Notes under the pieces: model-generated
The model's database searches: none
What the model was told of the DNA's origin: nothing
What the model saw: only the letters and a program-made list of their open reading frames with translations
Shown here: positions 2,824-61,002 of the stretch, piece after piece
How the letters are laid out: the number at the start of each line of letters is the position of its first letter
Position numbering within the stretch: the first letter of the stretch is position 1
Made by a program: the position numbers and the translations under genes
Assembly (NCBI GenBank): GCA_050084515.1
Contig: CM114271.1
Span: 30,504,001 to 30,568,000, forward strand
Origin: Blasia pusilla
Lineage: Eukaryota
DNA: 64,000 nucleotides
Direction: 5' to 3'

Positions 2824-2938
2824 GTTGTGCACATACACATCGTTACATAACAAACATCGTTGTCACCGAACACACACGATCACACGCTAACTCATGGCAT
2901 CCAAACAACGAGACAAGAAGTACCAAGATATCTCCAAT
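2824..2938 (-). repeat. Element 1 short repeat B2 (outermost), partner of B1 at ~3449-3569
   Basis: cacatacacatcg...ctaactcatggcatccaaacaacgagacaagaagtacca..atatctccaat is present on both sides of A2. Confidence 0.9.
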
Positions 2939-2940
2939 AA

Positions 2941-3436
2941 ATCAAGATCCAATCTTTCTCAACACCATAGCTCTCAAGCTATGTCTCTCTCAATGTCAAA
3001 CCAAACCCAATCTCCTAATGAGAGGCTTGGGTTACACACACAAGGCAAGCAAGACCATAACTCCGCCGTCTTATGCCAAGAGGTTCAACAAAGAGAGAAT
3101 GAGCTCTCAAGCTCTCTCACCTTAAGGCATACCCCTCCCCTCTCCTAAGCTCTCTCCCTGGTAACCTATGCTCCCAAGTCATCTCTTTAGCTCTTGACTT
3201 GATGTAGGAGGTCAAGGGCCACTTACCACAAATAGAAAGTCGACCATATAGTCAAAATGATACTTACCTGAAATAGCAGGTTCCTCAATATAGCTCCAAA
3301 TGAGCCGAAACAAAGGGAAAACTTGCTCTCTCAGGTTTCCCGGGGCCTCAACAGGTCATCCTCGACATCCTGATCTTGTCCTCCACTACTCGCGAAGGCG
3401 CTCTACTAGATCTGACCGAAGTATCCTAAAAGACGT
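2941..3436 (-). repeat. Element 1 second copy of terminal repeat (A2)
   Basis: Aligns by eye along its length to 12021-12558, with small indels. Confidence 0.92.
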
Positions 3437-3749
3437 CGCTACATCATACACATACACATCGCTACACAACATAGATCGATGTCATCGAACACACACACAA
3501 ACACACACGATCCCATGCTAACTCATGGCATCCAAACAACGAGACAAGAAGTACCAAAATATCTCCAATCGCCTCCCTAGTTGGTGGTTAGGTCCCTCTA
3601 ACTCCAGATAGCCATCTATCCCTACCTACCATGACATACATCTCTCGGACGCTAAGAGCAAGAAGATCGGGTGCTCATGTGGTCCCATCGTTAGTTGCCT
3701 TCTTGTCATCCATATCACAGACATAAGTTGGAATGTAGAAGTACATACT

Positions 3750-3893
3750 TTATGTATATCTAGGACATATCCATCTTCCCTGAGGAACCCTAGTGAGAGG
3801 TGGCGTCAAGCATGCCATATGCCATCCTCTCGAACATTCGTCATAGATTAGCATAGTGGTTGCACCACGCGCAGAACCACACAACATACATCG
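3750..3893 (-). pseudogene. PHD finger at element 1 integrase C-terminus
   Basis: CMLC..LIYDECSRGWHMACLTPPL..VPQGRWICPRY has C4HC3 spacing with two Cys>Tyr changes. Confidence 0.9.
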
Positions 3894-6800
3894 CAAGCCT
3901 ATACGAACTACTACTAAGCTTGGATCAACTGTATTGTAAATGTTTGGAAGGTGACACGGTGCAAAGTAACGCACATGGTCCTTCCAAACTATATCATTGC
4001 GTCCCTCCAATAAGAGAACACCTAATGGCAAAACCTCACGCACTCTCAAGATGGTGCGCCTTGAAGTTACATCCAACGTCGTGGGTGCCATCTCCTGCAA
4101 GTAGACATAGTCTCCCTAATGAAACCTATGGATAGTAGATCGATAATCACCTCCCCGAATAGTCGCACACCTCAACGTATCCCGATGTTGCACAATCGCC
4201 AAGTTCTCAAACGTCATGGGCATCACTCTCCCAAATAACTCAACCCTCTGAGAACATGCTCGCATCCATACATCAGGGTCATCAGGGTTCAACACCTCAC
4301 CTGTATCTCGACAAATGACCGTAGGTAAATCTGGCTCTTGGCCATAAAGCAACAAGAACGGTGAGAAAGACGCTAAGGATGCTTGCCTGCTGAATCTGTA
4401 TCCCATCGCCAACCATGGCAACTAAAGGTCCCAATCTCCTAGGTGACCTCTCTGCAAGCCATACTTTTGTAGTCCTCTCTTCACCATTTGCACAACCCGC
4501 TCCGCTAGTCCATCCGCCTCAGGATGATCTCGCGAAGTAGTGCGGTGGTTGATCAGTGTCTGATCACACAAGGCCTGAAACTCCCTGCGGAACTCAGACC
4601 TCGGTCATCAACACCTCATTTGGTGCTTTGAATGACTCAACACTTGATCTAGGAAGGCATACGCTACTCCCTCACTCGCTTTGTCAGGAAATGCAACCAA
4701 CTCTATCCACTTTGAGAAGTGCTCGAACATGACCAACACATAACGACTATGGCACTCCATCAAAGGCAAAGGTCGTGCAAAATCCAAACTCCATCTATAA
4801 CCTAAACCCATGATCGAAAGTGGATGCAACTATGGAGTAGGAGCATTGAACGATGCTTAGACTCGATCACACACCATCTATCTGGTAACAAATTGTTGAA
4901 TGTCAGTTTGCATGCCTCGCCACCAATACTGAATCTGGAGCAAGCTATATGTTGGCTTCACTCCAAAATGACCCATCTCCTCATGGGCATGACGCACCAA
5001 ATGCGCTCTCTACGAAGGATGAGGCACTACACGCACTCTACCATCCTCCCACACTCGCAACACATGTGTGCCCTCCCACCGGAACTGTCTGGCTCGCTAT
5101 AGGATCCGATCCCGCTCTTTAGCACTCATTGTGCTTGCGACGCTGCCAATACGTAGGTACTCCAAGACCACTCCATCGTCGTAAATATCTCGGCCACCTG
5201 TCGTCTCCTCACCGACCTCTGGATCTAAGGACTCTCCATCAGACCTCGTCATCGAAGTCTCAACAATCTCGCTCTCCATAGCCAACAAGCCCAAATAGGC
5301 TAACGCATGCCATCCTAGCACCAACTCCTCATCACTCTCACCATGCCAACGAGCTCCAATCGCATCTTGCAAACTCGGGCATGGGTTACGGCTCAAACCA
5401 TTTACATCCCAATTGAGCGTCCCAGGTCTATGCACCACGTCGAAGTCATACTCCTTCAACAAAAGAGCCCACCTCGCAAGCTTCCCTGTAAGCTTGTCGG
5501 ACTCTATCAACCACTTAAGTGGCTAATGATCAATAATAATGGTAAACAATTTGCTGAATAGATAACACCTGAGATGTGCAACAGCCCATAGCGTAGCCAA
5601 GAACTCATCCTCGTACGAGCTATACTTCACATCTGCATTGTTGTTTGAGCGACTAGCGTAAGCCACCACAAACTCTCTACCATCATTGTCATGTTGGGTG
5701 AGCACGGCTCCAAGCCCCAACATGCTCCAATCGATATGCAATTGGAAGGGACGGCCCCTGATTCATCTCCTCAATATAGGCGCGGACGTCAATCTGTACT
5801 TGGGCAGCTGAAATACTCTCTCTTGCTCATCCCCCCAGTGCCACTCTTGATCGAGCTCGGTCAGCAAGGTTAGCGGCTTTGCAATCAAACTGAAATCCTT
5901 GACGTACGGTCGAAAGAAGTTTGCCAATCCCATGAATGCACGAACCTGACTCACATCTGATGGGCGTGGAATGCGGGAAATAGCCTCTACCTTTGTCAGC
6001 TGCACACCAAGACCCCTTGGGTATATCTTATGATCCAAGTACTCAATCTGGTCGTAGAAGAACTTGCACTTGCATGGATGTAGCTTCAGCCCATGTAACT
6101 GCAATCGTCAAAATACCTCCTCTAGATGTCGCTCATGCTCCTGAACCTGGCGCTAAAGACTATGATGTCATCAATATAACACCTAGCAAAATCTAGACCT
6201 ACCAAGATCCTATACATGACCCTCTGAAACTCAACCGGGGCGTTCTTTAACCCGAATGGTAAGAACTGCCACTAGTACAAACAATCCTTCCTACAAGGAT
6301 CGATGCCCCAAAATTCCGTCTTCTTCCTGTCCACCAATCTAATAGGCAGCTGATGATATTTGGCTCGCAAATCCAATGAACTGAAAACCTTTGCATGCCC
6401 AATCACATCAAAGATCTCCTCGGGGTTGGGCATGGCATACCTATCAGACTTTGTCTCCAGATTGATAGATCGGTAATCTCCACATATCCGCCTATCCGTC
6501 AAGTTGCCATGCACATCCTTCTTGGCGGGCATGACAGTGGTAGATGCATACTCTCCATGCGACATCTACACTAGTTCTGCTCCAACCAAGTCTTGGCTCC
6601 TACTCTGAATCAGAGCCCTCTCCATGTGACAGTTCCTATAGGGTCGTCGGAAAATCGACGTGTCACTCGAAAACTCAATGTGGATCCCTAGACCCTTCAG
6701 CATACCTAAATCTTGCATGCTAAATGCAAAAAACTCCTATTACTCCTCACGAATTGATATATCTGGCGCCGTTCTCCTCATATCATCTTGGGGCCCATAT

Positions 6801-10269: not shown

Positions 10270-12020
10270 TTCCTCTACGCCCTCCTCCTCGTCTGCAGAT
10301 TACACAAAAGGAGGTCAAGGTGGTCCCGCACGTGGAGACCCTCGAAACCTCGCGCCAACCCTCTAGAGCTACTCTCTGGTCCACCACCTTGCCTCTCAAA
10401 GTCCCCAAAGGACGCCGAGATTATCCTCGTGCCCCCCTCACACGATCACTCTCAACCTCGCGAGTAATCAGGCAATCAGTCAATCTAACATGCGGCACTT
10501 AAACTACACTCTCTCACCGAGACGTGTGTTGTGCGGCAACAAATGGCGTGGTGCGGCAAATCAACTGATCTATAGTCTCATTGATAAACCATCCTCAACT
10601 TTGGACATCCCACACAGGTCCATATCCCCTCAACCCATAAGTCATCAATGCTCTCAGCATTAGCACGAAACCCAATATCCCAAATAACTTCCCAATACCG
10701 GGAACTCCCTCACACGTGCAGGGTAAGAGACCAAAATGGGTAACCTGACAATAATGTCGATGTCACTCCTCGACAACTGCAAATCTCAACCCCAACTCGT
10801 TCGTGAAGACAACTCCTCCAATCAGCAAGTCGTACTCCTCTCGTACTGACACTTTTGAAACCTCCTCAATATGCGGTGGGGATCTAGCGGTACGGTACGG
10901 TGCGGCTCTGGCGGCACGGAACGGCTACAGAACCGCACAACACTTGATAATGGGATGCGGCACTCCGCAGCATATGCTCCTCAATCAGCTATACACACGC
11001 ATTGCTCCTTAGTGAAGGAGCGGCTCTGCGATTGAGATGGTGCGGCGCAGCCACGAGCAGCACGCTGCGGCTACCGGCGTCACGCCACGGTACTTGATCG
11101 TCCTCGAGCGGCTACCAATCCCAACATAGCATAATGAAATGAAAACTCAAACACCATAACCCGAGATCACCTGCCATCATCGGTTGATGACGAAATAACA
11201 ATGACGCTCATGGCCAAAACAAAGTACGTGGTGGCGGCGCAAGTCAGAGAATCAGCGGTTGTCGTGGAAGACCCTCCACTCCGTAATGGCGGCAATGGCA
11301 ACCAAGGATGGAAAACGGCCGAACACAGCTCTAAGCAACGCTAGGTGGCGGCGGCGGCCGTAGTGGACGATGGACCATTGACGGTGACGGCGGACCATTG
11401 ATGGTAATAGTTGACCCTCGATGGCGGACCATTGAAGATGACGGCAACGGCCACCGCCGGCGCGGTGGCTAGTTTAGGGTTTGAACAATTTTACCCTAAA
11501 AATTTCCTAGCAATGCCAGTTTTGCAAGATTGACCATAACATTTTGCTCGCAACTCCAAATTGCGCACTGTCTATTGCACAGCGTGCACAACTTCACAAT
11601 CTACGACGGCATCAAAAGAGTTATAAATCAGACATTCCAGTAAAAATTGACAGGGATTGTCGTAAAGCCCAACGTCTCTTTCTCCTACACAAAATTTGGC
11701 AGCACTTCTGCATTGATTTCTCCCAACGAAATTTTAAAACCTGTGAAAAATCAAAAAGCTACATGGTGCTCTTGAGAGCACCGACATGGGGAAATTTTCC
11801 CCCATACTCAATCCCTATAAAAAATTGGGCAACACTTTCGCGCGCCACTCTTCCACACGAAAAATCGGCAAAGAAAACATAAAAGATGAGCGGCTTCGGC
11901 TCCGGTGAGCACTCCCATGAACCGTTGAACAAGGAATAGGATCCCCAACCTGCAAAACCAACGAGTGACTAGCGAGCTCCTCCATGAAGCTCTCTCACTC
12001 ATCTCATTCTCTCTTTGTAC

Positions 12021-12558
12021 ATCAAGATCCAATCTCTCTCAACACCATAGCTCTCAAATGTGTGCACTCTCACATGTATCTCTCAATGTCAAACCAAACC
12101 CACTCTCCTAATGAGAGGCTTGGGTTACACACACAAGGCAAGCAAGACCATAGCTCCGCCGTCTTATGCCAAGATGTTCAACAAAGAGAGAGTGAGCTCT
12201 CAAACTCTCTCTTTCCTTGAGGTATACCCCTCCCTTCTCCCAAGCTCTCTCCATGGTAACCTATGCTCCGAAGTCACCTCCTTGGCTCTTGACCTAATGT
12301 AGGAGGTCAAGGGCTATTTACCAGAAATATAAATTCGACCATATACTCAAAATGGTACTTACCTAAAATAGTAAGTTCCTCAATATTGCTCAAAATGAGC
12401 CGAAACGAAGGGAAAACCTGCTCTATCACATTTTTGGGGACTTCAGCATGTCATCCTCCACCTCATGAGCCTGTCCTCCACGACCTCATGAGCATGTCCT
12501 CCACTACTCGTGAAGGCGCTCTACTAGATCTCACTGATCTATCCTAAAAGACGTGACA
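12021..12558 (-). repeat. Element 1 5' terminal repeat (A1)
   Basis: Direct repeat of 2941-3436 (atcaagatccaatc...atcctaaaagacgt); starts with TG on the minus strand. Confidence 0.92.
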
Positions 12559-43756: not shown

Positions 43757-44504
43757 TATACCATAGGCGCTTTCTTCTCAGTAAAAATAGTATTTCTGGA
43801 ACTATCCGTCCACCGTAGGAGTGTTGTAGAAGCCCTAAAAAGTATTCTCTTTTCCTTTCAATTCAACGCTACCACGAGAAATTTGAGTATGGGAAGAGGT
43901 TAATAGCGGAAAAGAAAAAGGGGAAAACCACTAAAATATAGGAGGATCGTGAGGTGTAAATGGGATGCACTTTTCTTTCATAAAATATAGTTGTAGGCTT
44001 CACATGTTGGTATAAATAAAGCCTTGTTTTAAAAAACGATTGAGTGCAATTCTTAGATTTGTGAAATGACTACATTCCATTTTTCTTAGTTTCTTTCGTC
44101 ATGGTCAACAAGTCATCTGGCTCTGAAAGACCTCAACATGAAAGTTGTCAGAAACGACGTTCCTGACACAATGGACCTATCCTCAACCTCATCAGACACC
44201 ATGGGACAAAGTTACACTCAAGATAGTCCGCTGGCTCCTACGCCCTATCCACGATAGATCTCGGCCTATCAGCTACTCAGATGTGATAGTTGTCGTGCGC
44301 ATACATATCGCTACACAACATACATCGCTTGTCACATCTACACCACATAACATCGATCTTCCCCACACACGGGTCGATCCACACATGTACAAAAATCAAC
44401 TCATACATATACATGGAGATCACACAACCGCCCCCCTAGCTGGCAGTTGGATCCCCCCAACTCCAGATAGAAAATATCACATCTCTCTAACATGACCTAC
44501 TACC

Positions 44505-44646
44505 CTATACACATCTCGGACACATCCATGGTCTCGTGGGAACCACATCAAGAGGGGGGGTCAGACATGACATATGCCACCCTCGAGAACAACCATCACA
44601 TACCAACATGGTGGCCGCACCCCTCGCAGATTCGCACAACATACAC
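44505..44646 (-). other. Intact PHD finger (C4HC3) at element 2 integrase C-terminus
   Basis: Manual translation gives CMLCESARGAATMLVCDGCSRGWHMSCLTPPLDVVPTRPWMCPRCV*. Confidence 0.93.
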
Positions 44647-47600
44647 CTCAAGCCTGTAGGTACCACTCAGATCCACCGTCCCATCTACGCTCGGAAGATG
44701 ACATGGCGCACACTTGCGCACATGATCCTTCCAAACCATACCATCCCGTCCCTCCAACATGAGGACTCCGGTCGGTAATACCTCGCACACACGTAGGATC
44801 GTACACCCTACAGTGACATCTAGCGTCGTGGGTGCCACCTGGTGTAAATACACATAATCTCCAAGATGAAACCTTCTAATCCCTGGACAATGACCTCCTC
44901 CACGAATGGTCGCTTACCTCAATGTATCTCTATGCTGGGAAATAGCTAAGTTCTCAAAGACCATAGGCATAACTCTACGAAAAACCTCCGCCCTCTGAGA
45001 ACATGCTTGTACCCACACATCTGGATCATCAAGATCTAACACCTCTGCCATGTCACGTCGAATCGCTGCAGGTAAATCGGGCTCTCTCCCAAAGAGCAAA
45101 AATTACGGTGAAAATGACGCCCAGGATGCCTGCCGACTAAAGCGATAACCCATAGCCAACCATGGCAACTGTAGGTCCCACTCCCTCAACTGTCCCCGCT
45201 GCAAGCCATACGTGCGCAATCCTCTCTTCACCGTATGTACCACTCTCTCCGCCAACCCATCCGCCTCAGGATGATCTCTCGACGTGGTGCGGTGATCTAT
45301 GAGCGCTTGATCACACAGGGCCTGAAACTCTCCCTTGAACTCGGTACCCTGGTCAGTCAACACCTCCGCCGGTGCACCAAAGTGACTAAGCACAGGATCT
45401 AGAAACGCATAAGCTGTTCCCTTGCGCATGCTCGCCTTATATGGTAGTGCCACCAACTCTATCCACTTGGAGAAATGCTCCACCATGACCAACACGTACC
45501 TATGATGACGCCCCGTCAATGGAAAATTAAGGTCCCGCAAAGTCTAAACTCCACGGATAACCTAAACCCATAATCGGCAAAGGATGTAACTGCGGAGTGG
45601 GAGCATTGAAGGATGCTCCCACTCTGTCACATACCATACATCTTGCCACAAACTACTGTATCCCAGTATGCATGCCGTGCCACCAATACTGAACCTGGAG
45701 TAAGTTGTAAGTACGCTTTACTCCAAAATGTCCCAACTCCTCATGGGCATGTCTCACTACACGTGCTCGCTGGGAAGGATGAGGTACCACTCGTATCCTA
45801 CCATCTCCCCATACCCGCAAAATATGAGTCCCCTCCCACCTGAATCTCTTGGCTCTCTGTAGGATCCGATCCCGCTCCCTAGCACTCACTGTACTCGCTA
45901 TGATGCCAGTGCGCAAGAACTCCACAACCTCCACGTCGTCATGGATATTGCGACCACCTATCGCCTCCTCACTAACCTCCGGATCCAAAGACTCATAATC
46001 CAACCTCACCACTCGAGTCATCACCTATGGCTGACCTACCATAGTCAACCAACAAAGATAGGCAGATGCATGCCAACCGGGCACCATCTCCTCATCACTC
46101 TCTCCATGCCATCGAGCTCCTGTGTGGTCTGTCTGACTCGGACATGGGTTACGACTCGGACATGGATTACGACTCGGACATGGGTTGCAAATGGGTTACT
46201 CAACCCATTTGCATCATATGGTTCAGCCGACCTGGCCTATGAACCACCTCAAACTCCTGTAGTAATAGAGCCCACCCGGAAAGCTTTCCCGTAAGCTTGT
46301 CGGACTCCTTCAACCACCTCAACGGCTGATGATCACTGATAAGTGTGAAAGGGTTGCCGAATAAATAGCACTTGAAATGTGCCACGGCCCACACTGCAGC
46401 CAAGTACTCTCCCTCGTAGGAGTTGTACTTTTCCTCTTCAATGTTGTTTGATCGGCTCGCGTAAGCGACAACGAACTCCCTCTCCTCGTCATCCCTTCGA
46501 GTAAGCACTGCTCCTAGACCCAACATGCTCCAATCCGTATGTAACAGGAATGGGCGACCCCTAACCGGTCTCTGTAAAATGGGTGAGGACGTCAACCTGT
46601 CCTTGAGCTCCTGAAATGCTCGCTCCCAATCATCTCCCCACAACCAAACCTGATCAAGTCTCGTCAACAAGGTCAAAGACTTTGCGATCGCACTAAAACC
46701 CTTGACATACCGTTGATAGAAGTTCGCCAGTCCAAGAAATGCTCGGACTCGACTCACATTTGTAGGGAGTGGAATCTACGCAATAGCCTCTACCTCGGGT
46801 ATATGGTGTGTCCCAAGTACTTAATCTGCTCCTGAAAGAATCTGCACTTGCCTGGATGTAACTTCAGCCCATGTAACTGCAATCGCCGAAACACCTCCTC
46901 CAAATGTTGCTCATGCTCCTCAACCGTGGAACTGAAGATAAGAATATCATCTATGTAACATCGTACAAAATCCAAGCCAACCAAAATCCTATCCATTACT
47001 CTCTGAAACTCTGCAGGCGCGTTCTTCAACCCAAATGGTAAGAACCGCCATTGATACAAGCAATCTCTCCCAAACCGATCTATCCCCCAGAATGTTGTCT
47101 TCTCCTTGTCCTCCAACCTGATAGGAAGCTGATGATAGCCAACACGGAGATCTAAAGTACTGAAGATCTTTGCATGCCCTACCTCATCAAAGATCTCCTC
47201 AGGAGTAGGCATGGCATACCGATCGGACCTCGTCTGTGGGTTGATAGGACGGTAATCTCCACACATCCGCCTATCTGTCCAATTGCCAAACATATCCTTC
47301 TTTGTCGGCATGATTGTGGCAGATGCATACTCCCCATGTGATAACTCCACAAGTCCTGCCTCCAACAATTCCTGACTCCTGCTCTCAATCAAGGCTCGCT
47401 CCATATCAGAATACTTGTAGGGTCGACGAAAGATCGGCGTATCACTAGCCAACTCAATCTGTATCCCTGGACCCTTCAGCGTACCCAAGTCTCTCATACT
47501 GAAGGCAAAACAACTAACATGCCCTCTCAGAAACCTATGAACTTGCCGTCGCTCTCCTCCTATCAACTTGAGACCTATCATAGGCTGCCAAGTCTCCATG

Positions 47601-51905: not shown

Positions 51906-54900
51906 ATGGCCAACACTAGGAAGACGCTGCTAAGATACCCCACGTTTGCAGCGGGACGGCGAGATGATGTTGACAACTTTGTGCTTGAATTTAACCATGT
52001 ATCCAAGGCTAATGGGGAAGGGTTAGAGGAGAATTTGTTGCGAGTCTTTCCTGGCATGCTTAAGAAGCAAGCAAGCCAATGGTACGAGGGTCTCAGAGCG
52101 GACGTCACGGAAACTTGGAAAAAGGTACTGGAGGCCTTTCTTCATGAGTTCCGTGACTTGGAGTTCGAGGACAGGCTTCTAACAAATCGTCACGACCTGA
52201 AACGTAAAAAGAAGGAAACTCTCATGGAATACACCCAAAGGTTTCAAAGCGTGGTGAATAAACTTGAACACACTACTACCTCATAATTGGTAGATTGGTT
52301 TGTGTCGGGACTGTCCAAAGAAATGGACCGGTACTACCGGCGAGGCCAACAAGATTCCCTGGAAGCAGTCATAGCCTCCGCAGAGGCATACGAGGCCTCA
52401 AAGAAGTCCCGTAAAACACGAAGACGGCGTCATCAACGACAAGGTTCTTTGCAAACAAGTGCTTCGTCGGAGGACGAAGCGTCTTCCATGACACAGAATC
52501 CTCTATTGGGGACACTTCGGAGTCCTCGGACTCCGGAAAAGATTTAAAATCTAAGCGGAAAAGAAAAAGCACGCGCCACCACTCGCCTTAGCATCGAAGG
52601 AAAACCCGACCAACAAAGCACCTTCCGCAGCGGTCGGAAAGTCCAGTAAGGGGGACAACGGGGAAGGCAAGCAAATCTGCCATTGAAGAGCTAAGTAAAC
52701 AAATGGCCGAATTGAAGGTACATCTGGCGGCCCAGAAGGATCCCAGAAGACGACCAGGTCTGATGAGGCCCAACATCTGGTGCAATACCTACGGAACCCA
52801 AGGGCATACTGCTCAGGAATGTCATACTCACAGAGATTTACGTTGGATCCAAGAAGATCCAACTATAGAAGAAGGGTGGTATGAACCCGAACAGTGGGAA
52901 GGGTGCTATGCAATCCAAGCTGTGCCACCACCTAATCCCGGACGAAGTTGGATCATCCAATATGTGCCTCCAAAATACAGGGAACAGAGACCCCTAAGAC
53001 AGATTATGGGCGCGGCAGCCTTCACGCCACCCATAAAAAGGAATTGTTGTTATAATTGCGGGGCAGCTGACCATTGGGCTAATAATTACACCACGAGGTA
53101 CAAGAATCAGACCGCTGGGACCCCCAAGGCAAGGAAAGATGCTTCGTCTTCGCGCGAAGCTAAAGACCCCAAGACGAAAAGTGTCAATGTCTTCCGCGCC
53201 GGGAAGGTCATCCTAAAAGGTGATGTTGACCCGGCCTTCGATCGAAGTCACCCTAAGTACTTCCATCAGGATATTGAGGACCAGGTTCGGGCTCAAGTGT
53301 GCCAGGACCAAGGGCCAGAATGGAGGCAGACCACAGAGAAGACGAGAACCGGAACGATTCCGGCCATGCAAGCCATCGTGACGTCACCTCTGGTCTTAGA
53401 AGCCTACGACTTACTCAGGGACTTGGCGTCAACCCCGGCCAATATAACCCTGCTGCAATTATTAATGCATAACCCTGTGTACGGCAAACTTTTGCAGCAG
53501 TGGAAGATAAGCCGCATAAAACCCAAGAAGTCTGCAAAGAATCTACTAGTAGTGGATCTGTTCCGTATCGAAGTGGAAGATTTGGGAGCCCCAGAGGTAG
53601 AAGTGGAGATTGAAGGATACACCATTAAGAAGGTCCTCATTGACTTAGGAAGTGGAATTAACATTATGACGGAACAGACAGCCCGGGCACTAGGATACAC
53701 GGAGTACGAGCCCACCGACAAGTATCTGCGGTTCGCGGATCAGTCCCGGAAGTGACCCCTTGGACAGCTCACTCAAATCCCGACCATGCTTGGCCGGGTG
53801 CTATTTCTATTGGACTACTTAGTATTGCAGCCCCTAACAGCCACTGGCTATCCTTTGCTTATTGGAAGACCCTAGCTGTACGATGCGAGAGTGACTACGG
53901 ATTGGAAAAGGAGACGATTCACGTTCTAGGCTCCGGACCTGGTCTCAAAACGATTCATCAAGCTGTCGTGGAAATCACGACCACCCCAAGGAGAAACGCC
54001 ACCAACCGATGAAGGCTATACGTCAGATCAAGAGCAGACTACAGCTACTAAGTCCTCCTCCAATGTGTATTATTTAGAATGTTACGAGATAGACGAGGAG
54101 TCAGTACCTAACAAACAGAAGTCGACCCGAGAGGAAGAGAAGCTTGGACATAGCACTTTCCAATTAACAGAAAATATGGTTCAAGAAAAGGACTACGTAG
54201 AGGTCTTAATTACAGGTCGGAAGTCTCTACGACTCTCGGCGGATTTGTCTCCAACCAAACTCATTAAGTATAAAAGGTTATTGTTTGAGTATTTGGATGT
54301 GTTTGCATACTCCATGGATGAAATGACAAGCATTCCAGCACGGTATGGTGAACAGTGAAATGACCTAAAAGAAGGTGCGGTCCTGGTACGGATGAGGCAG
54401 TATCGCCTCAACCCGAAGTACTCGTTGTTAGTCAAGGACAAAATCGACCAGCGTCTCGAGGCAGGAATAATTTATCCTCTGTTAAGTAGCGAGTGGGTGT
54501 CTCCCATTGTGATTGTACCCAAAAAAAAAACGGGAAAAATCAGAGTGTGCCAAGATTATCGAAAACTGAATTCGGCCACCTTAAAGGACCATCACCCCCT
54601 ACCTTTCACTGACAGTATTTTGGACAAAGTTGCTGGCCACGAGCGTTATACTTTTTTGGATGGATACTTGGGTTATAACCAGGTATCCATACGAGAAAAA
54701 GATCGGGCCCTCACAACTTTCACCACGGACTGGGGAACTTTTGCGTATCGTGTGATGCCCTTTGGGTTGTGCAATGCGCCAGCTACCTTCCAACGGATGA
54801 TGATCTCCATCTTCCAAGAGTATCTGCGGAAGTTTGTTGAAATTTTCCTGGATGAATTTTGTATCTTCAGTACAGAGGCCGGACACTTGGAAAAATTAGA

Positions 54901-56662
54901 ATTAACCCTCGCTCGTTGTCGCAAAGTGCATTTGTCCCTCCATCCGGAAAAATCGTATACTGCCATGAAACAAGGGATTTTGTTGGGGCACAGAGTGTCG
55001 GCTCAAGGAATTGAAGTCAACAAGGCCAAGGTGGATATTATCGTCGCATTGGAACCACCCACCAATCTCCAAGAATTGAGAGGATTCTTGGGACACGTTG
55101 GATATTACCGACGGTTTATTAGGGATTATGCGGTGAAAGCAGGAGCTCTTACCGCATTACTTAAAAAAGCTATTGGATGGGAGTGGACCCCACCCTGCCA
55201 AGCGGCATTTGATGCCTTAAAGGGAGCATTGCAAAAGGCTCATGTACTTCGGTCCCCCGATTGGACCAAACCCTTCCACGTATATGTGGACACATCCTCG
55301 TTTGCCAATGGAGTGGTGTTCAGCCAACTGGATGAGAACAAACATGATTTCCCGGTTTACTATGCAGGCCGTCAACTATCTTCAGCGGAGCAAAAATATA
55401 CAACTACCAAACGAGAGGCGTTAGGCATGGTCTTCTCGTGTAAAAAGTTCCGACACTATTTATTAGGGTACGAGTTTGTCTTCCATGTAGATCATTTTGC
55501 GCTCCGACCATTAATGGTTAAGGCGGACCTGTCGAGTATCGGCGATGCTTGGAAGCAGAAGAAATCCCCCATGTCATCAGAGCCATGCATGCGGCTGATT
55601 CTGGTGGACACTACGCTGTAAAAAATACCGTTAAGAAAATCTTGGCCGCACGTTATTGGTGGCCAACTATGTACAAAGATGTGGGTAACTTTATCCAAAG
55701 TTGTGATGCATGCCAAAGAGCAGGTCGACCAACGGCTACCTCAAGGTGGCCTTTGATACCCATCATGCCGCTAGCGCCGTTTGAAAATTGGGGTATTGAC
55801 TTTGTGGGCCCCATTTCCCCTGCTACTCGCCACACAAGGCGAAAATATATTTTGATAGCTACCAACTATTGTACCAAGATGGTGGAGGCCGGCCACGCGC
55901 AAAGATGATAGTGAGGCTGTGGCCAAATTTTTATACGAAATGATTATCACCCGATATGGCTGCCTGTTGGAACTAGTAAGCGATCGAGGCACCCATTTCC
56001 TGAACCAGACTATTCCGTCTTTAACGAAATACTTTCTCATTAAGCATCAGAAGACCACGCCCTACAACCCTAAAGCCAATGGGTTGACTGAAAACTCTAA
56101 CAGACTGATCTTCCGGATATTGAATTGATTGACGGTAACGTATTCCTATGATTGGGACATGAAAATTTCCGCGGCATTGTGGGCATACCGAACAGCCAAG
56201 AAGGTTACTACAAAGTATACCCCGTTCTTCCTGACTTATCGCGTTCATCCCTTAACACCTATTGAAAGGGCTTTGCCCACTTATCGAGTGTTGGAAGGAA
56301 CGAGAACGGAGGGAGTCGGCGAAGTTTTCCAAGGAAGGAATGAGACCTTAGTTGCATTGGAGGAAGCACCCACGTTGGCATTATGCCAGACAAAACATGT
56401 GCAAAACAAACGAAAGCAACATTACGATCGACATCTCCGGCCGCAATCTATAAGCGTTGGGGACTTGGTGCTGTTGTACGATAATCGGCGGCTAAAGTTC
56501 CTCGGAAAGTTAAAATTAAACTGGATGGGACCCTACCGGGTATTGGCCATCTATGATAACAGATCACTACAGTTGGGGACCTTACAGGGTGAATCCCTGC
56601 CCACTCGTGTCAATGGGATGCATGTTCGGTGGTATTATGAGCCTCAACCCTACCCGGACTGA
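51906..56662 (+). pseudogene. Nested element gag-pol (gag, PR, RT, RH, IN with GPY/F)
   Basis: CYNCGAADH knuckle; VLIDLGSGINIM; RVCQDYRKLN..MPFGLCNAPATFQR..FLDEF; WGIDFVGP, SDRGTHF, WMGPYRV; stops and frameshifts. Confidence 0.93.
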
Positions 56663-56910
56663 AACCGGAGGGAAGGGGTGAGCGACTGCCTGAAGCTTCG
56701 CAAAAGGGCGAAGCGCGAGGATGCTAGAACTTTGCAGAAGCGCAAAGCATAAGGTATGGGATCTTTGGAGAGGTGCGAAGCGCGAGATTTTTTGAGCTTC
56801 GCAAAGAGGCGAAGCGCCAAACTGACTGTTGCCGTCCCGACGCCAACGCCAAGAGCCCGCATAACGCTGGGACTATATAAGCATCCCTACTGAACCAGAC
56901 GGGTATTTTC

Positions 56911-57711
56911 ATGGACGGAGTCACCCCAAAGTTGCGTAGCAGACCAAAGCGGGGCATTCACCGAGATCGACCTACCAGCATGCCTCGTGAAGACTCCACG
57001 CCCATTTTACGAAGTGCGGTCATGCCTATGGTCAAGCTGTCACCAGAGTTGGTCAAAGCGCTTGAAGAGCGATCTTTGGCGACTTTCTTTCAAGCAAATT
57101 GGACCTTGACATCCAGGGAACTCCTCGGGGAGCTTCGTTCCTTGACTACAGCAGCCAAGTTTCGAAGAAAGGGTCTTCAATATCGAGCTTTACCACAACA
57201 ATGGACGCCGGATGATTGGCGAGCAACTCATATGCTCCAGGCCGCTCCAAAGTACGAGTATGACACCAAACTGCTGGTAAAGCACGAAGATTTGTTGGCA
57301 CTCGGCTGTGAAACGTCTGATCGCCTTGGCAGGAATCGCTACAAGGCTACTTCGTTGTCACCGCCATTATTTGGACAGGTTTGCAAGCATGTGATGACTT
57401 TGTTTTATCCTGCTCGTTCTTACTACCTCACGAATAAGCTCGTCAAGATGTGCTATATCCTTTGGAATCAACACCTGGACCCCGAAGCACCGGGAGTCGA
57501 CTTCGCTTCTTTTGTGGACGGGCACGTACGCGCAATTCTCGAAGAACTTCATCCAAACACAAAGTCATTCATGTCTCCTTTTTTAATCCATCTATATATT
57601 CATAAGCAGGAATTGACGGCAAACGAGGCGCTAGATTGGTCGCAAGTCACTCCCGTCCGCTTGCTAAGAAAGAGCGGAGCGGTCCCTAGTGGGAGCCGCA
57701 AAGTCACATCG
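56911..57711 (+). CDS. Extra 3' ORF of nested Gypsy element, unknown function, truncated
   Basis: About 267 open codons downstream of integrase, with tatataa at ~56874; runs into element 2 sequence at ~57712. Confidence 0.6.
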
Positions 57712-59384
57712 AGGCACCATCGATGGTGTGTGTAGTGCCTCCAACAATGTGAATGACTGTGGAACCCTGGCCTGCCGCCCATTGGTCCCCTCTGGTGGGT
57801 CAATCTCAACTCCACCTCTCGGTGGCTCGGTGCCTCTCATAGCACCCGGAGTCACCACTACAGCTGCCTCAACCTAGGCTGCACTACACATAAACCCCAT
57901 ACAAGCGAGATCCTCACCTGGGTCAGGGTAAGAGGTGGAAGTTGGAGTCACACTAGCTGCTTACAGCTTTGTGCCTTCCCTAAGGTGCATCATGGTCATG
58001 GCAGCAATCCTCTGCTCCAACTGATCGATGCGTGAGTGAAGTGCCAGCTCTGGTGCTCCTGCTCCATCTCCTCTGGTTGGTGGTGGTCCTCTACCACCAC
58101 ATCCAGGAAGGACTCCCCGACCTCCTCTAGGACGACCGCCCCTAGGCCCTCGGCCTACTTCTGGATGTGCCCCTCGGCGAAGGTCATAACATCTATCCCT
58201 AGTGTGACCATATCTGTGGCAATTGTCACACTGGTGCTCTGGTGGGGCCATCCTCTGTGACTCCTGAGCAATCGGAGGTGCTGGTGGTCCTCTCCCATGC
58301 TGTGGGCAGTCTCTCTGCCTATGGGCCCCTCCACATGTCCAACAAGACCACATCGGTCCCTGCTGGGCAACATATGTAGGTACGGGTCGTTGCCTCATAG
58401 GCTCACGGTACCCGCCTTGCTCTCTGGGCACACCGACTCGCTCCCGTGGTACTGGTGCTCACTGTGGCACCTGCGGGGTTACGGTCGCTCGTGGACCCAT
58501 CGACTCTCGAGAAAATCCAGCGGTCACTACCTGCTCCTCACTCATGTTGAGCTCAATACGCTTAGACAACTCAAAGACCACCTTCAATATGGGCTTCGCT
58601 GTGTGAATCAACACTGCATCTCGGACTCTCTTCTGTAGTTCTCGGTCTAGAACCCCGTACCAATACTGGACTGACTGCGCCTCAGTCACTCCATACGTAG
58701 CAATGATCAGCTTCCTCATGCGTATGAATGCCTCTCTTAGACTCTCACCTGATCATCGCTGAAAATCCTGTAGACTCTTCATCTTGTCGATGCGTACACC
58801 CTGGTAGCTCTTCCCCAATTGTCGGAAGAACTCCACTGTGGGGCTGAAGCTGGGTGGCCCTCTACCACCAAAGTCTCTGCCACATCGCCTGTCTCACTAC
58901 CCTCCTCTCCATCTAGTCTCCGGGCTGATGGTGTGGGTCTCTCTCCTCTCACAATCCCATCATATGCCTCGCGACCACAAGTGGACACATACCCTGGAGC
59001 CCAATACATCCTCCAGGCATCGATCTCTACTGAATATATTGATCGAAACTCCATGTAATCATCCATCGGAGGACCCTCCAAGTGCTGGAACAACCCCTTC
59101 CATGCCATGAAAGGGTTGAACCGTGTTGGGGTCCATATCTCCTGGAAGTTGCACCACGTGTCGAACTCCTGGATAAAATCATCTAAGTCGATGGTGCCCA
59201 CTGCACTCGAGAAACGACGCATGCCCCGATGGCCCATGTCGTCCATCTCCTGCCAAGTAATATTGCCTTCGTCTGCGCTCTTGTCACCAGACCCAGTGTC
59301 TAGTGATGACGATCCAGCCACGGATGGATGTCGAGGTAGCTCCCCACTGGTAACCCCTTGGTGTCTCACTTCACTCCGTGTCAC
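57712..59384 (-). pseudogene. gag: Element 2 gag
   Basis: GMRRFSSAVG..FDTWCN..FNPF; zinc knuckles CWTCGGAHRQRDC and CDNCHRYGHTRDRC; RGG-rich segment. Confidence 0.9.
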
Positions 59385-61002
59385 ACCACTACCACTGGTA
59401 GCACTACCCCGTTCTTCTGAACCCTGGAAGAACGTCGTGATGACAAACCCTGTCTCACCCGCTCAAGCACTCAGACTCACCGAGAGTCTCTCACACTCCT
59501 CGCTAGCTCACCTATGCTAATTTCAATCCCGTGATGACACAGCCGGCCTCACGCACACTCAACACTCGGGCTCACCATGAGCCTCCCAACTGACTCACCT
59601 AACCTAGCGACACTCTCGGTTCATACATGCAACCCCTACGCGGCAACCACTGTATATCCACCAACATGCTACACATGAACAGAATCTACACTCGTCACCA
59701 TGACTGCACCCACCTAGCACCAGCTACTATCCGATACCCAGCACTCTCAATCACACACGACAAGTGCGGAAAAAGGGACTCGAATGGGTAACCTGATCAC
59801 GCCCTCCAACCTACTGCACTGTCAGCATGCACTCCCCCAGGTGACACGGCAACCTTTGCAACACAACACTCTCCTCGACCAGCACGTCGATCCTCCCGTC
59901 AACAGATGCAGACAACCCGTTGGCATTATGCGCACTACCCCTCCATCGTCAACTCTCGCAATGCCCTGTCGTGCCCAAAAACATCATGTCACGCAAACCT
60001 CTCCGTCCATCCCCACACACGGCATGTAACCTGACTCACCCTGGTCGGCTCCACTCCTACCACGTACACACTGTCTCTACCACGTTGCCCATGCGCAACC
60101 ACGTCCAAAGGGGGGGAAAGAGAAATAAATGCGGGAGGGGGGGGCTTGGCCTGCACCCCTATGGGCCTCCCCAACTTTGGGGAAAGAAATAAATGCGCTG
60201 GGGCGCGTCGCCACCCACCGTCTGCCCGTCGTCGTTCACATGTCTGCGCCCGCCGACCTAAACGCCTCCTGCTCTTTCCCGACACTCTCACTCACATACA
60301 CCCGACGCCCTACCGCACACTACACTCGGCTGCTATCCCGCGTCAATCCGTACAAGCAAAATCTGAAAAAAAACGGACAGCGCTTCCGCCCACGGCCTTC
60401 CAAACACAAAAATGACTGACACCCGCAATACACGCGTCTCTAGGGGCTCCTGACCAAGGCAACTTGCTTGCCTACCTACAAACAACGAATTACCACCCGC
60501 CCCCTGACATCTTTCTCATGTAAAAAATAAAGAGTAGTAAAAACGGCACACCCGGCCTAAAACTCCACTCCTCAATCTACATCGGCATATCGAGCCTCGT
60601 CCACCCTGTGCTATCAAGGAATCCGGACTCTAGCATCCTAGTCCTATCTCACACACATACAAGAGAGGTGCTCCAACGGCCCAACATGAGAAAGATGGCT
60701 TAGGAAATCCATCTTCCTCTCTTATATAGGGTTGGGAAGAGCCAAAAGGCTCTTCCCCTAAAAATAGCCCTCCCCTTGGTAACCTGCGCGCACAAATTAC
60801 CAAGGGCGGGTGACCTGGTCAACAAGTCATCTGGCTGTGAAAGACCTCAACATGAAAGTTGTCAGAAATGACGTTCCTGACACAATGGACCTATCCTCAA
60901 CCTCATCCGACACCATGGGACAAAGTTACACTCAAGATAGTCCGCTGGCTCCTACGCCCTATCCACGATAGATCTCGGCCTATCGACTACTCATATGTGA
61001 TA

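What the first reader, a model, noticed from the sequence alone, without database searches (positions are those of the whole stretch)
44505..44850. Integrase ends in a PHD finger, pairing a chromatin reader with the DNA methylation writer
Seen: a complete C4HC3 PHD closes Pol in element 2, and a decayed one does so in element 1 (3750-3893); no chromodomain follows. Known: PHD fingers read the H3K4 methylation state, chromoviruses use a chromodomain at this position for targeting, and animal DNMT3 has a PHD-like ADD domain that reads H3K4me0. Inference: the PHD may steer integration, and possibly methylation, to a chosen chromatin state.
Basis: partly seen in the sequence, partly recalled or inferred. 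Interest (0 to 1): 0.75.

Follow-up and report, generated by a model that had tools for sequence, protein, structure and literature searches.

The report
Retrotransposon integrase ending in a PHD finger
Two dead copies of a plant-lineage Gypsy retrotransposon end their integrase in a PHD finger and also carry a DNMT3-like DNA methyltransferase, a real and conserved pairing made of parts already described in related elements.

Summary
On the minus strand, element 2 has a full C4HC3 PHD finger (44511-44645; Pfam PF00628 45.9 bits, cut-off 24). Element 1 has a decayed one (3756-3890; 35.5 bits, two Cys changed to Tyr). Each is followed by a stop codon one residue after the last ligand. No chromodomain follows.

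Caveats:
- In element 2 the PHD is out of frame with the integrase, because of an indel in the linker near 44667-44672.
- Element 2's Pol has four frame changes from RT to PHD; element 1 has in-frame stops. Both copies are dead.

The elements belong to a green-lineage Ty3/Gypsy clade (Marchantia, Calypogeia, Sphagnum, chlorophyte algae). Intact relatives encode gag-PR-DNMT3-like-RT-RNaseH-INT-PHD in one polyprotein. Among 120 long relatives, 72 have both the DNMT-like region and the PHD, 1 has the PHD only, and 34 have neither.

The PHD evolved under purifying selection (dN/dS 0.14). Its nearest solved relatives are readers of the unmodified H3 tail (BAZ2A/B, DPF2/3, BHC80, UHRF1, KDM5 PHD1), and it lacks an aromatic-cage Trp. 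Chromatin-guided integration is therefore plausible but untested.

PHD-bearing Gypsy elements (Chlamydomonas) and DNMT3-bearing Gypsy elements (Klebsormidium) are already published. This is a new member of a known kind; the tight DNMT-PHD co-occurrence is the modestly new point.

The parts
44511..44645 (-). Element 2 PHD finger core, first to last zinc ligand (C4HC3, 8 of 8 ligands present)
   Evidence: PF00628 45.9 bits; AlphaFold2 pLDDT 87.8; Foldseek TM 0.73-0.86 to solved PHD fingers
44505..44507 (-). Stop codon, one residue after the last Cys of the element 2 PHD
44667..44672 (-). Approximate site of the frame break (indel, not a multiple of three) in the linker between integrase C-terminal domain and PHD of element 2
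44673..45525 (-). Element 2 integrase, end of the catalytic core and SH3-like C-terminal domain (aligns to residues 689-973 of intact relative P0028)
   Evidence: fold of the element 1 equivalent
45530..46156 (-). Element 2 integrase H2C2 zinc domain and start of the rve core (different frame from the next piece)
   Evidence: (PF17921, PF00665)
46203..46775 (-). Element 2 RNase H
   Evidence: PF17917 102 bits
46793..47641 (-). Element 2 reverse transcriptase
   Evidence: PF00078 109 bits
47762..49426 (-). Element 2 DNMT3-like C5 methyltransferase region. Motif I (DLFGGI), motif IV (GWPCQG) and motif VI (ENV) are readable; in-frame stops are present
   Evidence: (PF00145 40 bits)
57712..59246 (-). 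Element 2 gag, cut off from the rest of the element by a nested insertion
   Evidence: P0037 residues 1-490
52592..57735 (+). Unrelated Ty3/Gypsy element nested inside element 2, in the opposite orientation
44102..44288 (-). Element 2 downstream terminal repeat (97% identical to 60816-61002)
60816..61002 (-). Element 2 upstream terminal repeat
3756..3890 (-). Element 1 decayed PHD finger (6 of 8 ligands; ligands 3 and 8 are Tyr)
   Evidence: (PF00628 35.5 bits)
3753..4115 (-). Element 1 open stretch of 121 codons joining the integrase C-terminal domain and the PHD in one frame
3753..6152 (-). Element 1 RT (C-terminal part), RNase H, integrase and PHD in a single frame (with in-frame stops), aligned to residues 236-1028 of P0028
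7127..8750 (-). Element 1 DNMT3-like region (decayed; motif I and ENV readable)
2938..3436 (-). Element 1 downstream long repeat A (83% identical to 12018-12554)
12018..12554 (-). Element 1 upstream long repeat A
3449..3569 (-). Element 1 short repeat B, inner copy (83% identical to 2830-2938)
2830..2938 (-). Element 1 short repeat B, outer copy

Best explanation
The region encodes the C-terminal end of the Pol of a Ty3/Gypsy LTR retrotransposon. The element belongs to a green-lineage clade, and its host is probably a bryophyte, most likely a liverwort. In this clade the integrase's SH3-like C-terminal domain is followed, after a short conserved linker, by one canonical PHD finger that ends the polyprotein. 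The same Gag-Pol carries a DNMT3-like cytosine methyltransferase; in this family it lies between protease and RT.

Shown: the anatomy, the homology, the purifying selection on the PHD, the co-occurrence with the DNMT, and the death of both copies in the window.

Inferred: the PHD works like the chromodomain of chromoviruses. It stays attached to integrase and binds the N-terminal tail of histone H3. It most likely prefers tails without K4 trimethylation, because it lacks an aromatic cage and resembles unmodified-H3 readers. Integration would then be tethered to nucleosomes away from active promoters. The DNMT could then methylate the new copy or its surroundings, but coupling between the two domains is a further inference.

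My confidence in the anatomy is about 0.95. The confidence figure given for this explanation is for the mechanism.
For: PHD identity:
- PF00628 scores 45.9 and 35.5 bits against a cut-off of 24.
- The AlphaFold2 model has pLDDT 87.8.
- It matches solved PHD fingers of BAZ2A/B, DPF2/3, UHRF1, ATXR5, BHC80, MOZ/MORF, KDM5 PHD1, CHD5 and AIRE at TM 0.64-0.86 and rmsd 0.7-2.9 A.

Part of Pol:
- In element 1, integrase C-terminal domain and PHD share one 121-codon open stretch. The whole span 6152-3753 aligns to an intact relative in one frame.
- 34 of 34 close relatives (Marchantia, Calypogeia, Sphagnum and unnamed records) carry PF00628.
- Relatives of 1033-1043 aa read RT-RNaseH-INT-PHD.
- The PHD ends 1-14 residues before the C-terminus in 26 of the 27 close relatives that match the spacing pattern.

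Selection: element 1 against element 2 gives dN 0.20, dS 1.44 and dN/dS 0.14 over the 45 PHD codons. The integrase C-terminal domain gives 0.10 over 66 codons.

Breadth:
- 3329 cluster representatives match at E<=1e-3 and 534 at E<=1e-10. Most of the top 150 match the integrase C-terminal domain and the PHD together.
- 18 of 18 mid-size and 16 of 17 long transposon-type representatives have integrase plus PHD by Pfam.

Pairing with the DNMT:
- P0258, P0267 and P0270 hold protease, DNA_methylase, RT, RNase H, integrase and PHD in one protein.
- 17 of 17 long representatives have a DNMT-like insert.
- Of 120 long relatives, 72 have both, 13 have the DNMT only, 1 has the PHD only and 34 have neither.
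- By the precomputed Pfam column, both rises to 78 and DNMT-only falls to 7.

Reader class:
- The 60 solved sequences listed name no ING, BPTF or TAF3 type finger.
- The residue two positions before the His ligand is Gly in 133 and Ala in 11 of 144 family PHDs. I recall that H3K4me3 readers have their cage Trp at that position.
- The Asp after ligand 3 (131 of 144) and the P-x-G-x-W loop (142, 134 and 142 of 144) are conserved.

Published precedent: Gypsy-7a_cRei carries a PHD, and its 86 new insertions were intergenic 2.6 times more often than expected (PMC9940879, passages).
Against: - No binding or insertion data exist for this family, and nothing of that kind can be computed from one window.
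- Both copies are dead, so the locus itself does nothing now.
- The bryophyte subfamily has 0 acidic residues in the loop between ligands 2 and 3 in 17 of 27 copies, 1 in 9 and 2 in 1. Element 2 has 1 and element 1 has 0. Across the wider family, 81 of 144 have 2 or more.
- Since (recalled) H3K4me0 readers use acidic residues there, preference for unmethylated K4 may not hold for this subfamily.
- PHD fingers also bind non-histone partners.
- The DNMT is separated from the PHD by RT, RNase H and integrase, and protease processing may put them in different mature proteins.
- CpG observed/expected in the elements (0.73-0.74) is not lower than in the flanks (0.47-0.63). The sequence therefore shows no trace of unusually heavy methylation.
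Confidence: 0.5

Rival explanations
1. The PHD mainly serves the methyltransferase, not integration. Like the ADD domain of animal DNMT3, it would gate or aim the element's DNMT3-like enzyme at H3K4-unmethylated nucleosomes, so that the new copy or its neighbourhood is methylated.
For: - DNMT-like region and PHD co-occur tightly: 72 with both against 1 with the PHD only, among 120 long relatives.
- 17 of 17 long representatives have both.
- In chlorophyte relatives the DNMT lies directly upstream of integrase-PHD, in the order RNaseH-DNMT-INT-PHD.
- The DNMT is DNMT3-like (25 of 25 solved hits), and no ADD or PWWP domain was found in P0037.
- Retrotransposon DNMTs can methylate CG de novo (abstract of PMC5890265).
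Against: - In the window's family the DNMT lies between protease and RT, about 1,300 residues from the PHD.
- The PHD is always joined to the integrase C-terminal domain by a short conserved linker.
- 7 to 13 DNMT-bearing relatives lack a detectable PHD.
- No ADD-type Pfam model was among the 7 families hit by the PHD.
Confidence: 0.2
2. The PHD reads H3K4me3 or another active mark and steers integration towards promoters or active chromatin.
For: Some PHD fingers fused to transposons are related to PYGO, an H3K4me reader (preprint 10.1101/2021.11.30.470311, passages). The bryophyte subfamily has lost the acidic loop residues, so a changed specificity is possible.
Against: - 0 of 144 family PHDs have an aromatic residue two positions before the His ligand.
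- None of the 60 listed sequence matches, and none of the listed fold matches, is described as an ING, BPTF, TAF3 or PYGO finger.
- Gypsy-7a_cRei insertions favour intergenic DNA.
Confidence: 0.08
3. The PHD has no histone-reading role. It would be a zinc-stabilised module for integrase multimerisation, DNA or RNA binding, or recruitment of a non-histone host factor.
For: Purifying selection shows a function but not which one. Specificity residues differ between subfamilies. PHD fingers with non-histone ligands are among the matches, for example UHRF1 PHD with PAF15 or Stella peptides.
Against: The residues that I recall anchoring the H3 N-terminus and R2 are conserved: the P-x-G-x-W loop and the Asp after ligand 3. 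All nearest relatives by sequence and fold are chromatin proteins.
Confidence: 0.17
4. The PHD is not part of the element. It would be a chance motif, a captured host exon, or an artefact of reading a decayed sequence.
For: In element 2 the PHD is out of frame with the integrase.
Against: - It lies at the same place in two copies that are only 72% identical in DNA.
- It is in frame in element 1.
- It is present in 34 of 34 close relatives and in hundreds of distant ones.
- 0 of 200 shuffles gave a C4HC3 match.
- dN/dS is 0.14.
Confidence: 0.01

Closest known systems
Gypsy-7a_cRei and other PHD-bearing transposons of Chlamydomonas (Craig et al. 2022, PMC9940879; passages read)
   Same: A Ty3/Gypsy Gag-Pol with a PHD finger in a green-lineage host. 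The authors already suggest that the PHD may guide insertion. A C. reinhardtii gene model (P0311) falls in the same clade as the window's elements, with the PHD after the integrase.
   Different: In chlorophyte relatives the PHD is followed by a further 100-500 residues, and the DNMT-like region lies between RNase H and integrase. The passages I read do not mention a methyltransferase. I did not test whether P0311 is Gypsy-7a_cRei.
KnitGypsy-Dnmt3 of Klebsormidium nitens (de Mendoza et al. 2018, PMC5890265; passages and one supplementary table read)
   Same: A Gypsy LTR element of a streptophyte with a Dnmt3-type methyltransferase inside the polyprotein. The published repeat layout, A-coding-B-A-B, is also seen in element 1.
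   Different: The word PHD does not occur in the main text or in the one supplementary file held. Figures are not held, so I cannot say whether the Klebsormidium element has the PHD. No Klebsormidium sequence appeared among my named hits.
Chromoviruses (Gypsy elements with a chromodomain after the integrase; Gao et al. 2008 as cited)
   Same: A histone-reader domain fused to the C-terminus of a Gypsy integrase. The likely logic is the same: tether the integration complex to marked nucleosomes.
   Different: No chromodomain is present. The likely ligand is the H3 N-terminus, not H3K9me.
EpiLTRs (LTR elements with adenine and cytosine methyltransferases plus a chromodomain; preprint 10.64898/2026.05.21.726589, passages read)
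   Same: LTR retrotransposons that combine a DNA methylation writer with a chromatin reader in one element.
   Different: EpiLTRs use a chromodomain, a DNMT4-related enzyme and a DAM domain, in Cymbomonas and Euglena. Here the combination is a PHD and a DNMT3-like enzyme.
Animal DNMT3A/3B ADD-methyltransferase unit (function recalled; structures listed)
   Same: A DNMT3-type catalytic domain found together with a zinc-finger reader of the PHD superfamily, one that resembles readers of unmethylated H3K4.
   Different: The element's PHD is a plain PF00628 finger, not an ADD domain. It is fused to integrase, far from the DNMT in this family, and the domain order is reversed. No functional coupling has been shown.

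Membership tests
PHD finger (Pfam PF00628) | C4HC3 zinc-ligand pattern with canonical spacing | tested here: met
   Element 2 has 8 of 8 ligands and element 1 has 6 of 8. The spacing 11-4-14 is shared with 144 of 166 family PHDs.
PHD finger (Pfam PF00628) | Score above the curated gathering cut-off | tested here: met
   45.9 and 35.5 bits against a cut-off of 24.
PHD finger (Pfam PF00628) | PHD fold | tested here: met
   AlphaFold2 pLDDT 87.8. Foldseek gives 31 matches at E<=0.001, and all those listed are PHD fingers, with TM up to 0.86.
PHD finger (Pfam PF00628) | Binds two zinc ions | not testable with these tools
   Needs protein chemistry.
H3K4me3-reading PHD fingers (ING, BPTF, TAF3 type) | Aromatic cage including a Trp two residues before the His ligand (feature recalled) | tested here: not met
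   That position is Gly in both window copies. It is Gly in 133 and Ala in 11 of 144 relatives.
Unmodified-H3-tail (H3K4me0) reading PHD fingers (BHC80, AIRE, BAZ2, DPF, KDM5 PHD1, UHRF1 type) | Closest sequence and fold relatives belong to this group | tested here: met
   Entry titles state complexes with unmodified H3.
Unmodified-H3-tail (H3K4me0) reading PHD fingers | Acidic residues in the loop between ligands 2 and 3 that contact K4 (feature recalled) | tested here: inconclusive
   Element 2 has 1 acidic residue and element 1 has 0. Bryophyte relatives have 0 in 17, 1 in 9 and 2 in 1 of 27. In the wider family, 81 of 144 have 2 or more.
Unmodified-H3-tail (H3K4me0) reading PHD fingers | Binding to H3 peptides that is lost on K4 methylation | not testable with these tools
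   Needs peptide array or calorimetry.
Chromovirus | Chromodomain at the integrase C-terminus | tested here: not met
   No Chromo hit in 32 ORF pieces or in 10 downstream ORFs at E<=1. The stop codon follows the PHD directly.
Ty3/Gypsy LTR retrotransposon | Domain order RT, RNase H, integrase, plus flanking direct repeats | tested here: met
DNMT-bearing Gypsy elements (KnitGypsy-Dnmt3 kind) | Dnmt3-type methyltransferase inside the polyprotein | tested here: met
   PF00145 in element 2. 25 of 25 solved hits of relative P0037 are DNMT3A/B/C. One-ORF relatives P0258, P0267 and P0270.
DNMT-bearing Gypsy elements (KnitGypsy-Dnmt3 kind) | Repeat layout A-coding-B-A-B | tested here: met
   Met in element 1. 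Only one A pair was found in element 2.
DNMT-bearing Gypsy elements (KnitGypsy-Dnmt3 kind) | Sequence relationship to the Klebsormidium elements themselves | not tested
   No Klebsormidium sequence was among the named hits, and no eukaryotic genome collection was open to me.
DNMT3 ADD domain | ADD-type (GATA-like plus PHD-like) zinc module | tested here: not met
   The 7 Pfam families hit by the element 2 PHD are all plain PHD-type models, none an ADD model.

The most novel reading that the evidence does not exclude
A whole clade of green-lineage Gypsy retrotransposons, from chlorophyte algae to liverworts and mosses, has kept a DNMT3-like writer and an integrase-fused PHD reader together as one functional unit. 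This held even while the methyltransferase moved to a different place in the polyprotein. On this reading the element has independently rebuilt the logic of animal DNMT3 (an H3K4me0 reader plus a de novo methyltransferase). It would insert into unmarked chromatin and then methylate itself, choosing its own epigenetic state. The pairing itself does not appear in the papers my five literature searches found.
Probability: 0.15. Interest if true: 0.7.

Novelty: new member of a known kind. Interest (0 to 1): 0.4.

Why it matters
If the PHD does guide integration, this clade would be a second, independent solution to the problem chromoviruses solve with a chromodomain. It would give a natural system for studying how a transposon picks chromatin. 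The near-obligate co-occurrence of the PHD with a DNMT3-like enzyme raises a testable question: do some retrotransposons both choose and write their own chromatin state? Active relatives in Chlamydomonas, and chromatin maps in Marchantia, make that question approachable. The two copies in this window are dead relics and have no function of their own.

Tried and rejected
- Chance motif: rejected. 0 of 200 shuffles gave a match.
- Chromodomain hidden downstream of the PHD: rejected.
- Host exon or fused gene model: rejected, by the two diverged copies and the relatives.
- Two-domain fold search: the model of integrase C-terminal domain plus PHD gave PHF1/MTF2 Tudor-PHD and UHRF1 TTD-PHD as top hits. 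TM was only about 0.33-0.37 and rmsd 13-16 A. I treat this as a likeness of domain order only, not as evidence.
- CpG depletion as a trace of self-methylation: the elements have CpG observed/expected 0.73-0.74 and the flanks 0.47-0.63. No signal.
- Target-site duplication of element 1: the 5 bases outside the two A repeats do not match. With the repeats only 83% identical this says little.
- Motif IV search in the DNMT inserts: the regular expression was too strict and missed true motifs, so its counts are not used.
- Pfam on 9 other element 1 ORF pieces gave nothing. tblastn against relatives was used instead to map that element.
- Literature: five searches found no paper describing the DNMT plus PHD pairing. 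Figures and most supplements of PMC5890265, and the bioRxiv supplements, could not be seen and may bear on this.
- The organism could not be named.
- Complex prediction was not used, because no histone sequence was available under its rules.
Full report
**What is at the coordinates**

Element 2:
- A stop-free stretch of 53 codons (44508-44666) contains a complete C4HC3 pattern at 44511-44645.
- One more residue follows, then a stop codon at 44505-44507.
- Pfam scores it as a PHD finger (PF00628): 45.9 bits, E 5.7e-12, covering the whole 47-position profile, against a curated cut-off of 24 bits.
- It is the only perfect C4HC3 match in the six-frame translation of the 64-kb window. None appeared in 200 shuffled windows.

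Element 1:
- The equivalent stretch (3756-3890) has the same spacing.
- Ligands 3 and 8 are Tyr (TAT where element 2 has TGT).
- It still scores 35.5 bits, and its stop codon is at 3750-3752.

No chromodomain is present:
- None of 32 ORF pieces of the two elements hit Chromo.
- None of 10 small ORFs downstream of the PHDs hit it at E<=1.
- Only 216 bp (element 2) and 313 bp (element 1) separate the stop codon from the terminal repeat.

- In element 2 the PHD is not in the frame of the integrase. The integrase C-terminal domain is read in another frame, which runs through the PHD-coding DNA to a stop at 44596-44598.
- Alignment with element 1 and with intact relatives places the break in the short linker, at about 44667-44672. 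There element 2 has an indel that is not a multiple of three.
- Mapped against the intact relative P0028, element 2's RT-to-PHD region falls into 5 pieces with 4 frame changes.
- Element 1 keeps a single frame from 6152 to 3753 (residues 236-1028 of P0028) but has in-frame stops.
- Element 2's PHD has Arg at a position where 134 of 144 relatives have Gly.
- Both copies are therefore dead. The proof that the PHD belongs to Pol comes from element 1, where a 121-codon open stretch (3753-4115) holds the integrase C-terminal domain and the PHD together, and from relatives.

**Anatomy of the elements**

Element 2 reads, in sense orientation:

| Part | Coordinates |
|---|---|
| Upstream repeat | 60816-61002 |
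| gag | 59246-57712 |
| Nested, opposite-strand Gypsy (interruption) | 52592-57735 |
| Remnants of the protease region | 51257-50959 |
| DNMT region | 49426-47762 |
| RT | 47641-46793 |
| RNase H | 46775-46203 |
| Integrase | 46156-44673 |
| PHD | 44666-44508 |
| Downstream repeat | 44288-44102 |

- The DNMT region has motif I (DLFGGI), motif IV (GWPCQG) and motif VI (ENV) readable.
- Element 1 has the same order between 12554 and 2830.
- Its repeats are laid out A - coding - B - A - B (A: 12018-12554 and 2938-3436; B: 3449-3569 and 2830-2938).
- The two elements share only about 72% DNA identity over Pol, so they are old, separate lineages of one family.

**Relatives**

A word-indexed search with the 121-residue end of element 1:
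- It found 34 proteins, all 34 carrying PF00628.
- The named ones come from Marchantia polymorpha, Calypogeia fissa and Sphagnum fallax.
- Proteins of 1033-1043 aa read RT-RNaseH-integrase-PHD.
- Of these 34, 27 match the 11-4-14 spacing pattern. In 26 of those 27 the PHD ends 1-14 residues before the C-terminus.

A search with the DNMT piece:
- It found 31 proteins from the same bryophytes, 27 of them with PF00145 precomputed.
- Two of them, P0050 and P0053, have the DNMT upstream of RT.
- P0037, a Marchantia model, reads gag with zinc knuckles, a D-S-G protease motif, then the DNMT.
- All 25 of its matches among solved structures are DNMT3A, 3B or 3C.

An exhaustive HMMER search of 1.84 billion cluster representatives:
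- It gave 3329 matches at E<=1e-3 and 534 at E<=1e-10.
- Most of the top 150 match the integrase C-terminal domain and the PHD together.
- Six are host-type multi-PHD proteins, for example one with WAC, DDT-associated, PHD and bromodomain modules.

A last search for long relatives of P0028:
- It found single polyproteins of 2358-2703 aa (P0258, P0267, P0270) with protease, DNA_methylase, RT, RNase H, integrase and a terminal PHD. This is the architecture inferred for the window's elements.
- It also found many chlorophyte proteins: Haematococcus, Pleodorina, Chlamydomonas reinhardtii and C. eustigma, Monoraphidium.
- In these chlorophyte proteins a DNMT-like region lies between RNase H and integrase, and the PHD is followed by a further 100-500 residues.

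**The pairing is a clade feature**

- A profile built from the algal DNMT inserts hit 17 of 17 long PHD-bearing representatives. The bryophyte DNMT matched them at E 1e-54 to 1e-75 for most.
- Among the 120 long relatives listed, my scan found 72 with both a DNMT-like region and the integrase-PHD module, 13 with the DNMT only, 1 with the PHD only and 34 with neither.
- Those 34 are largely unrelated arthropod Gypsy models, which serve as a control.
- Using the precomputed Pfam column, six of the 13 also have a PHD. That gives 78 with both and 7 with the DNMT only.

**Is the PHD functional, and what kind is it?**

Selection:
- Between the two diverged window copies the PHD core has dN 0.20, dS 1.44 and dN/dS 0.14 (45 codons).
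- This is close to the integrase C-terminal domain at 0.10 (66 codons).
- Most of the divergence therefore accrued under purifying selection.

Fold:
- AlphaFold2 models the element 2 PHD at pLDDT 87.8.
- The 121-residue element 1 piece scores 79.7 and folds as a small beta barrel followed by the finger.

Nearest relatives:
- By sequence, the nearest solved proteins are CHD4 PHD1/2, KMT2C/D, PHF12, KDM5A/B PHD1, PHF21A (BHC80), DPF2/3, KAT6A/B, ATXR5, BAZ2A/B, AIRE and UHRF1.
- By fold, they are BAZ2A/B, DPF2/3, UHRF1, ATXR5, BHC80, MOZ/MORF, KDM5 and CHD5, at TM 0.73-0.86.
- Several of these entries are titled as complexes with unmodified H3.

Specificity residues:
- From memory, H3K4me3 readers place a cage Trp two residues before the His ligand. 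That position is Gly in 133 and Ala in 11 of 144 family PHDs, and Gly in both window copies.
- The Asp after ligand 3 and the P-x-G-x-W loop are conserved (131, 142, 134 and 142 of 144).
- One caution applies. The loop between ligands 2 and 3 is acidic in many chlorophyte members (2 or more acidic residues in 81 of 144).
- In the 27 pattern-matching bryophyte copies, that loop has 0 acidic residues in 17, 1 in 9 and 2 in 1.
- The exact mark read by the window's subfamily is therefore open.

**Most likely mechanism**

- Shown: the PHD is the conserved, selected C-terminal module of the integrase in a DNMT3-bearing Gypsy clade.
- Inferred: it tethers the integration complex to nucleosomes through the H3 N-terminal tail, probably avoiding H3K4me3-marked promoters. 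This would work as chromodomains do for chromoviruses.
- A role in aiming the element's methyltransferase is possible. The co-occurrence favours it. The distance between the two domains in this family, and the constant fusion of the PHD to integrase, count against it.

**What is already known** (passages read, not whole papers)

- Craig et al. 2022 (PMC9940879) describe a PHD in the Gag-Pol of Gypsy-7a_cRei, 86 new insertions with a 2.6-fold intergenic excess, and the idea of targeted insertion.
- de Mendoza et al. 2018 (PMC5890265) describe KnitGypsy-Dnmt3 and its A-coding-B-A-B repeats. The word PHD does not occur in the text or in the one supplementary file held; figures are not held.
- de Mendoza et al. 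2019 (PMC6673714) state that retrotransposon PHD fingers and chromodomains are widespread.
- A 2022 preprint (10.1101/2021.11.30.470311) finds PHD and Chromo to be the commonest chromatin domains fused to transposons.
- A 2026 preprint (10.64898/2026.05.21.726589) names elements that combine methyltransferases with chromodomains.
- Five searches found no paper describing the DNMT plus PHD pairing.

**Verdict**

- The window holds two dead bryophyte members of a known kind of element.
- The modestly new point is that writer and reader travel together across the whole clade.

Noticed in passing
2830-3569 and 12018-12554: Element 1's repeats are arranged A - coding - B - A - B in sense orientation. 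That is the DIRS-like layout reported for KnitGypsy-Dnmt3, not two simple LTRs.
   Followed up: partly
52592-57735 (+ strand): A different Ty3/Gypsy element (RT, RNase H, integrase H2C2; no PHD, DNMT or chromodomain hit) is nested inside element 2, between its gag and its protease/DNMT region.
   Followed up: partly
60975-62899: A tandem array with a period of about 205 bp (copies 62-84% identical) lies directly next to element 2's upstream repeat.
   Followed up: no
44700-44725 and 3945-3970 (approximate); alignment A2: A conserved C-A-P-C-H-L-P motif ends the integrase C-terminal domain just before the PHD linker in nearly all relatives. Whether it binds metal is unknown.
   Followed up: no
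44526-44528 (approximate), element 2 PHD: Element 2's otherwise complete PHD has Arg in the P-x-G-x-W loop, where 134 of 144 relatives have Gly. This is probably decay after inactivation.
   Followed up: partly
Relatives P0117-P0185, P0311, P0321 (not in the window): Chlorophyte relatives carry 100-500 residues after the PHD with no confident Pfam domain. One (P0321, Monoraphidium) has a weak Tudor-like hit below the cut-off (23.8 bits against 27.2).
   Followed up: no
Relative P0324 (Closterium sp. NIES-53) and six others: Seven DNMT-bearing relatives lack a detectable PHD at the end of the integrase.
   Followed up: no
44102-44288 against 60816-61002: Element 2's terminal repeats are 97% identical over only 187 bp, yet its Pol has four frame changes. 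The copy may already have been defective when it inserted, or the repeat is truncated.
   Followed up: no
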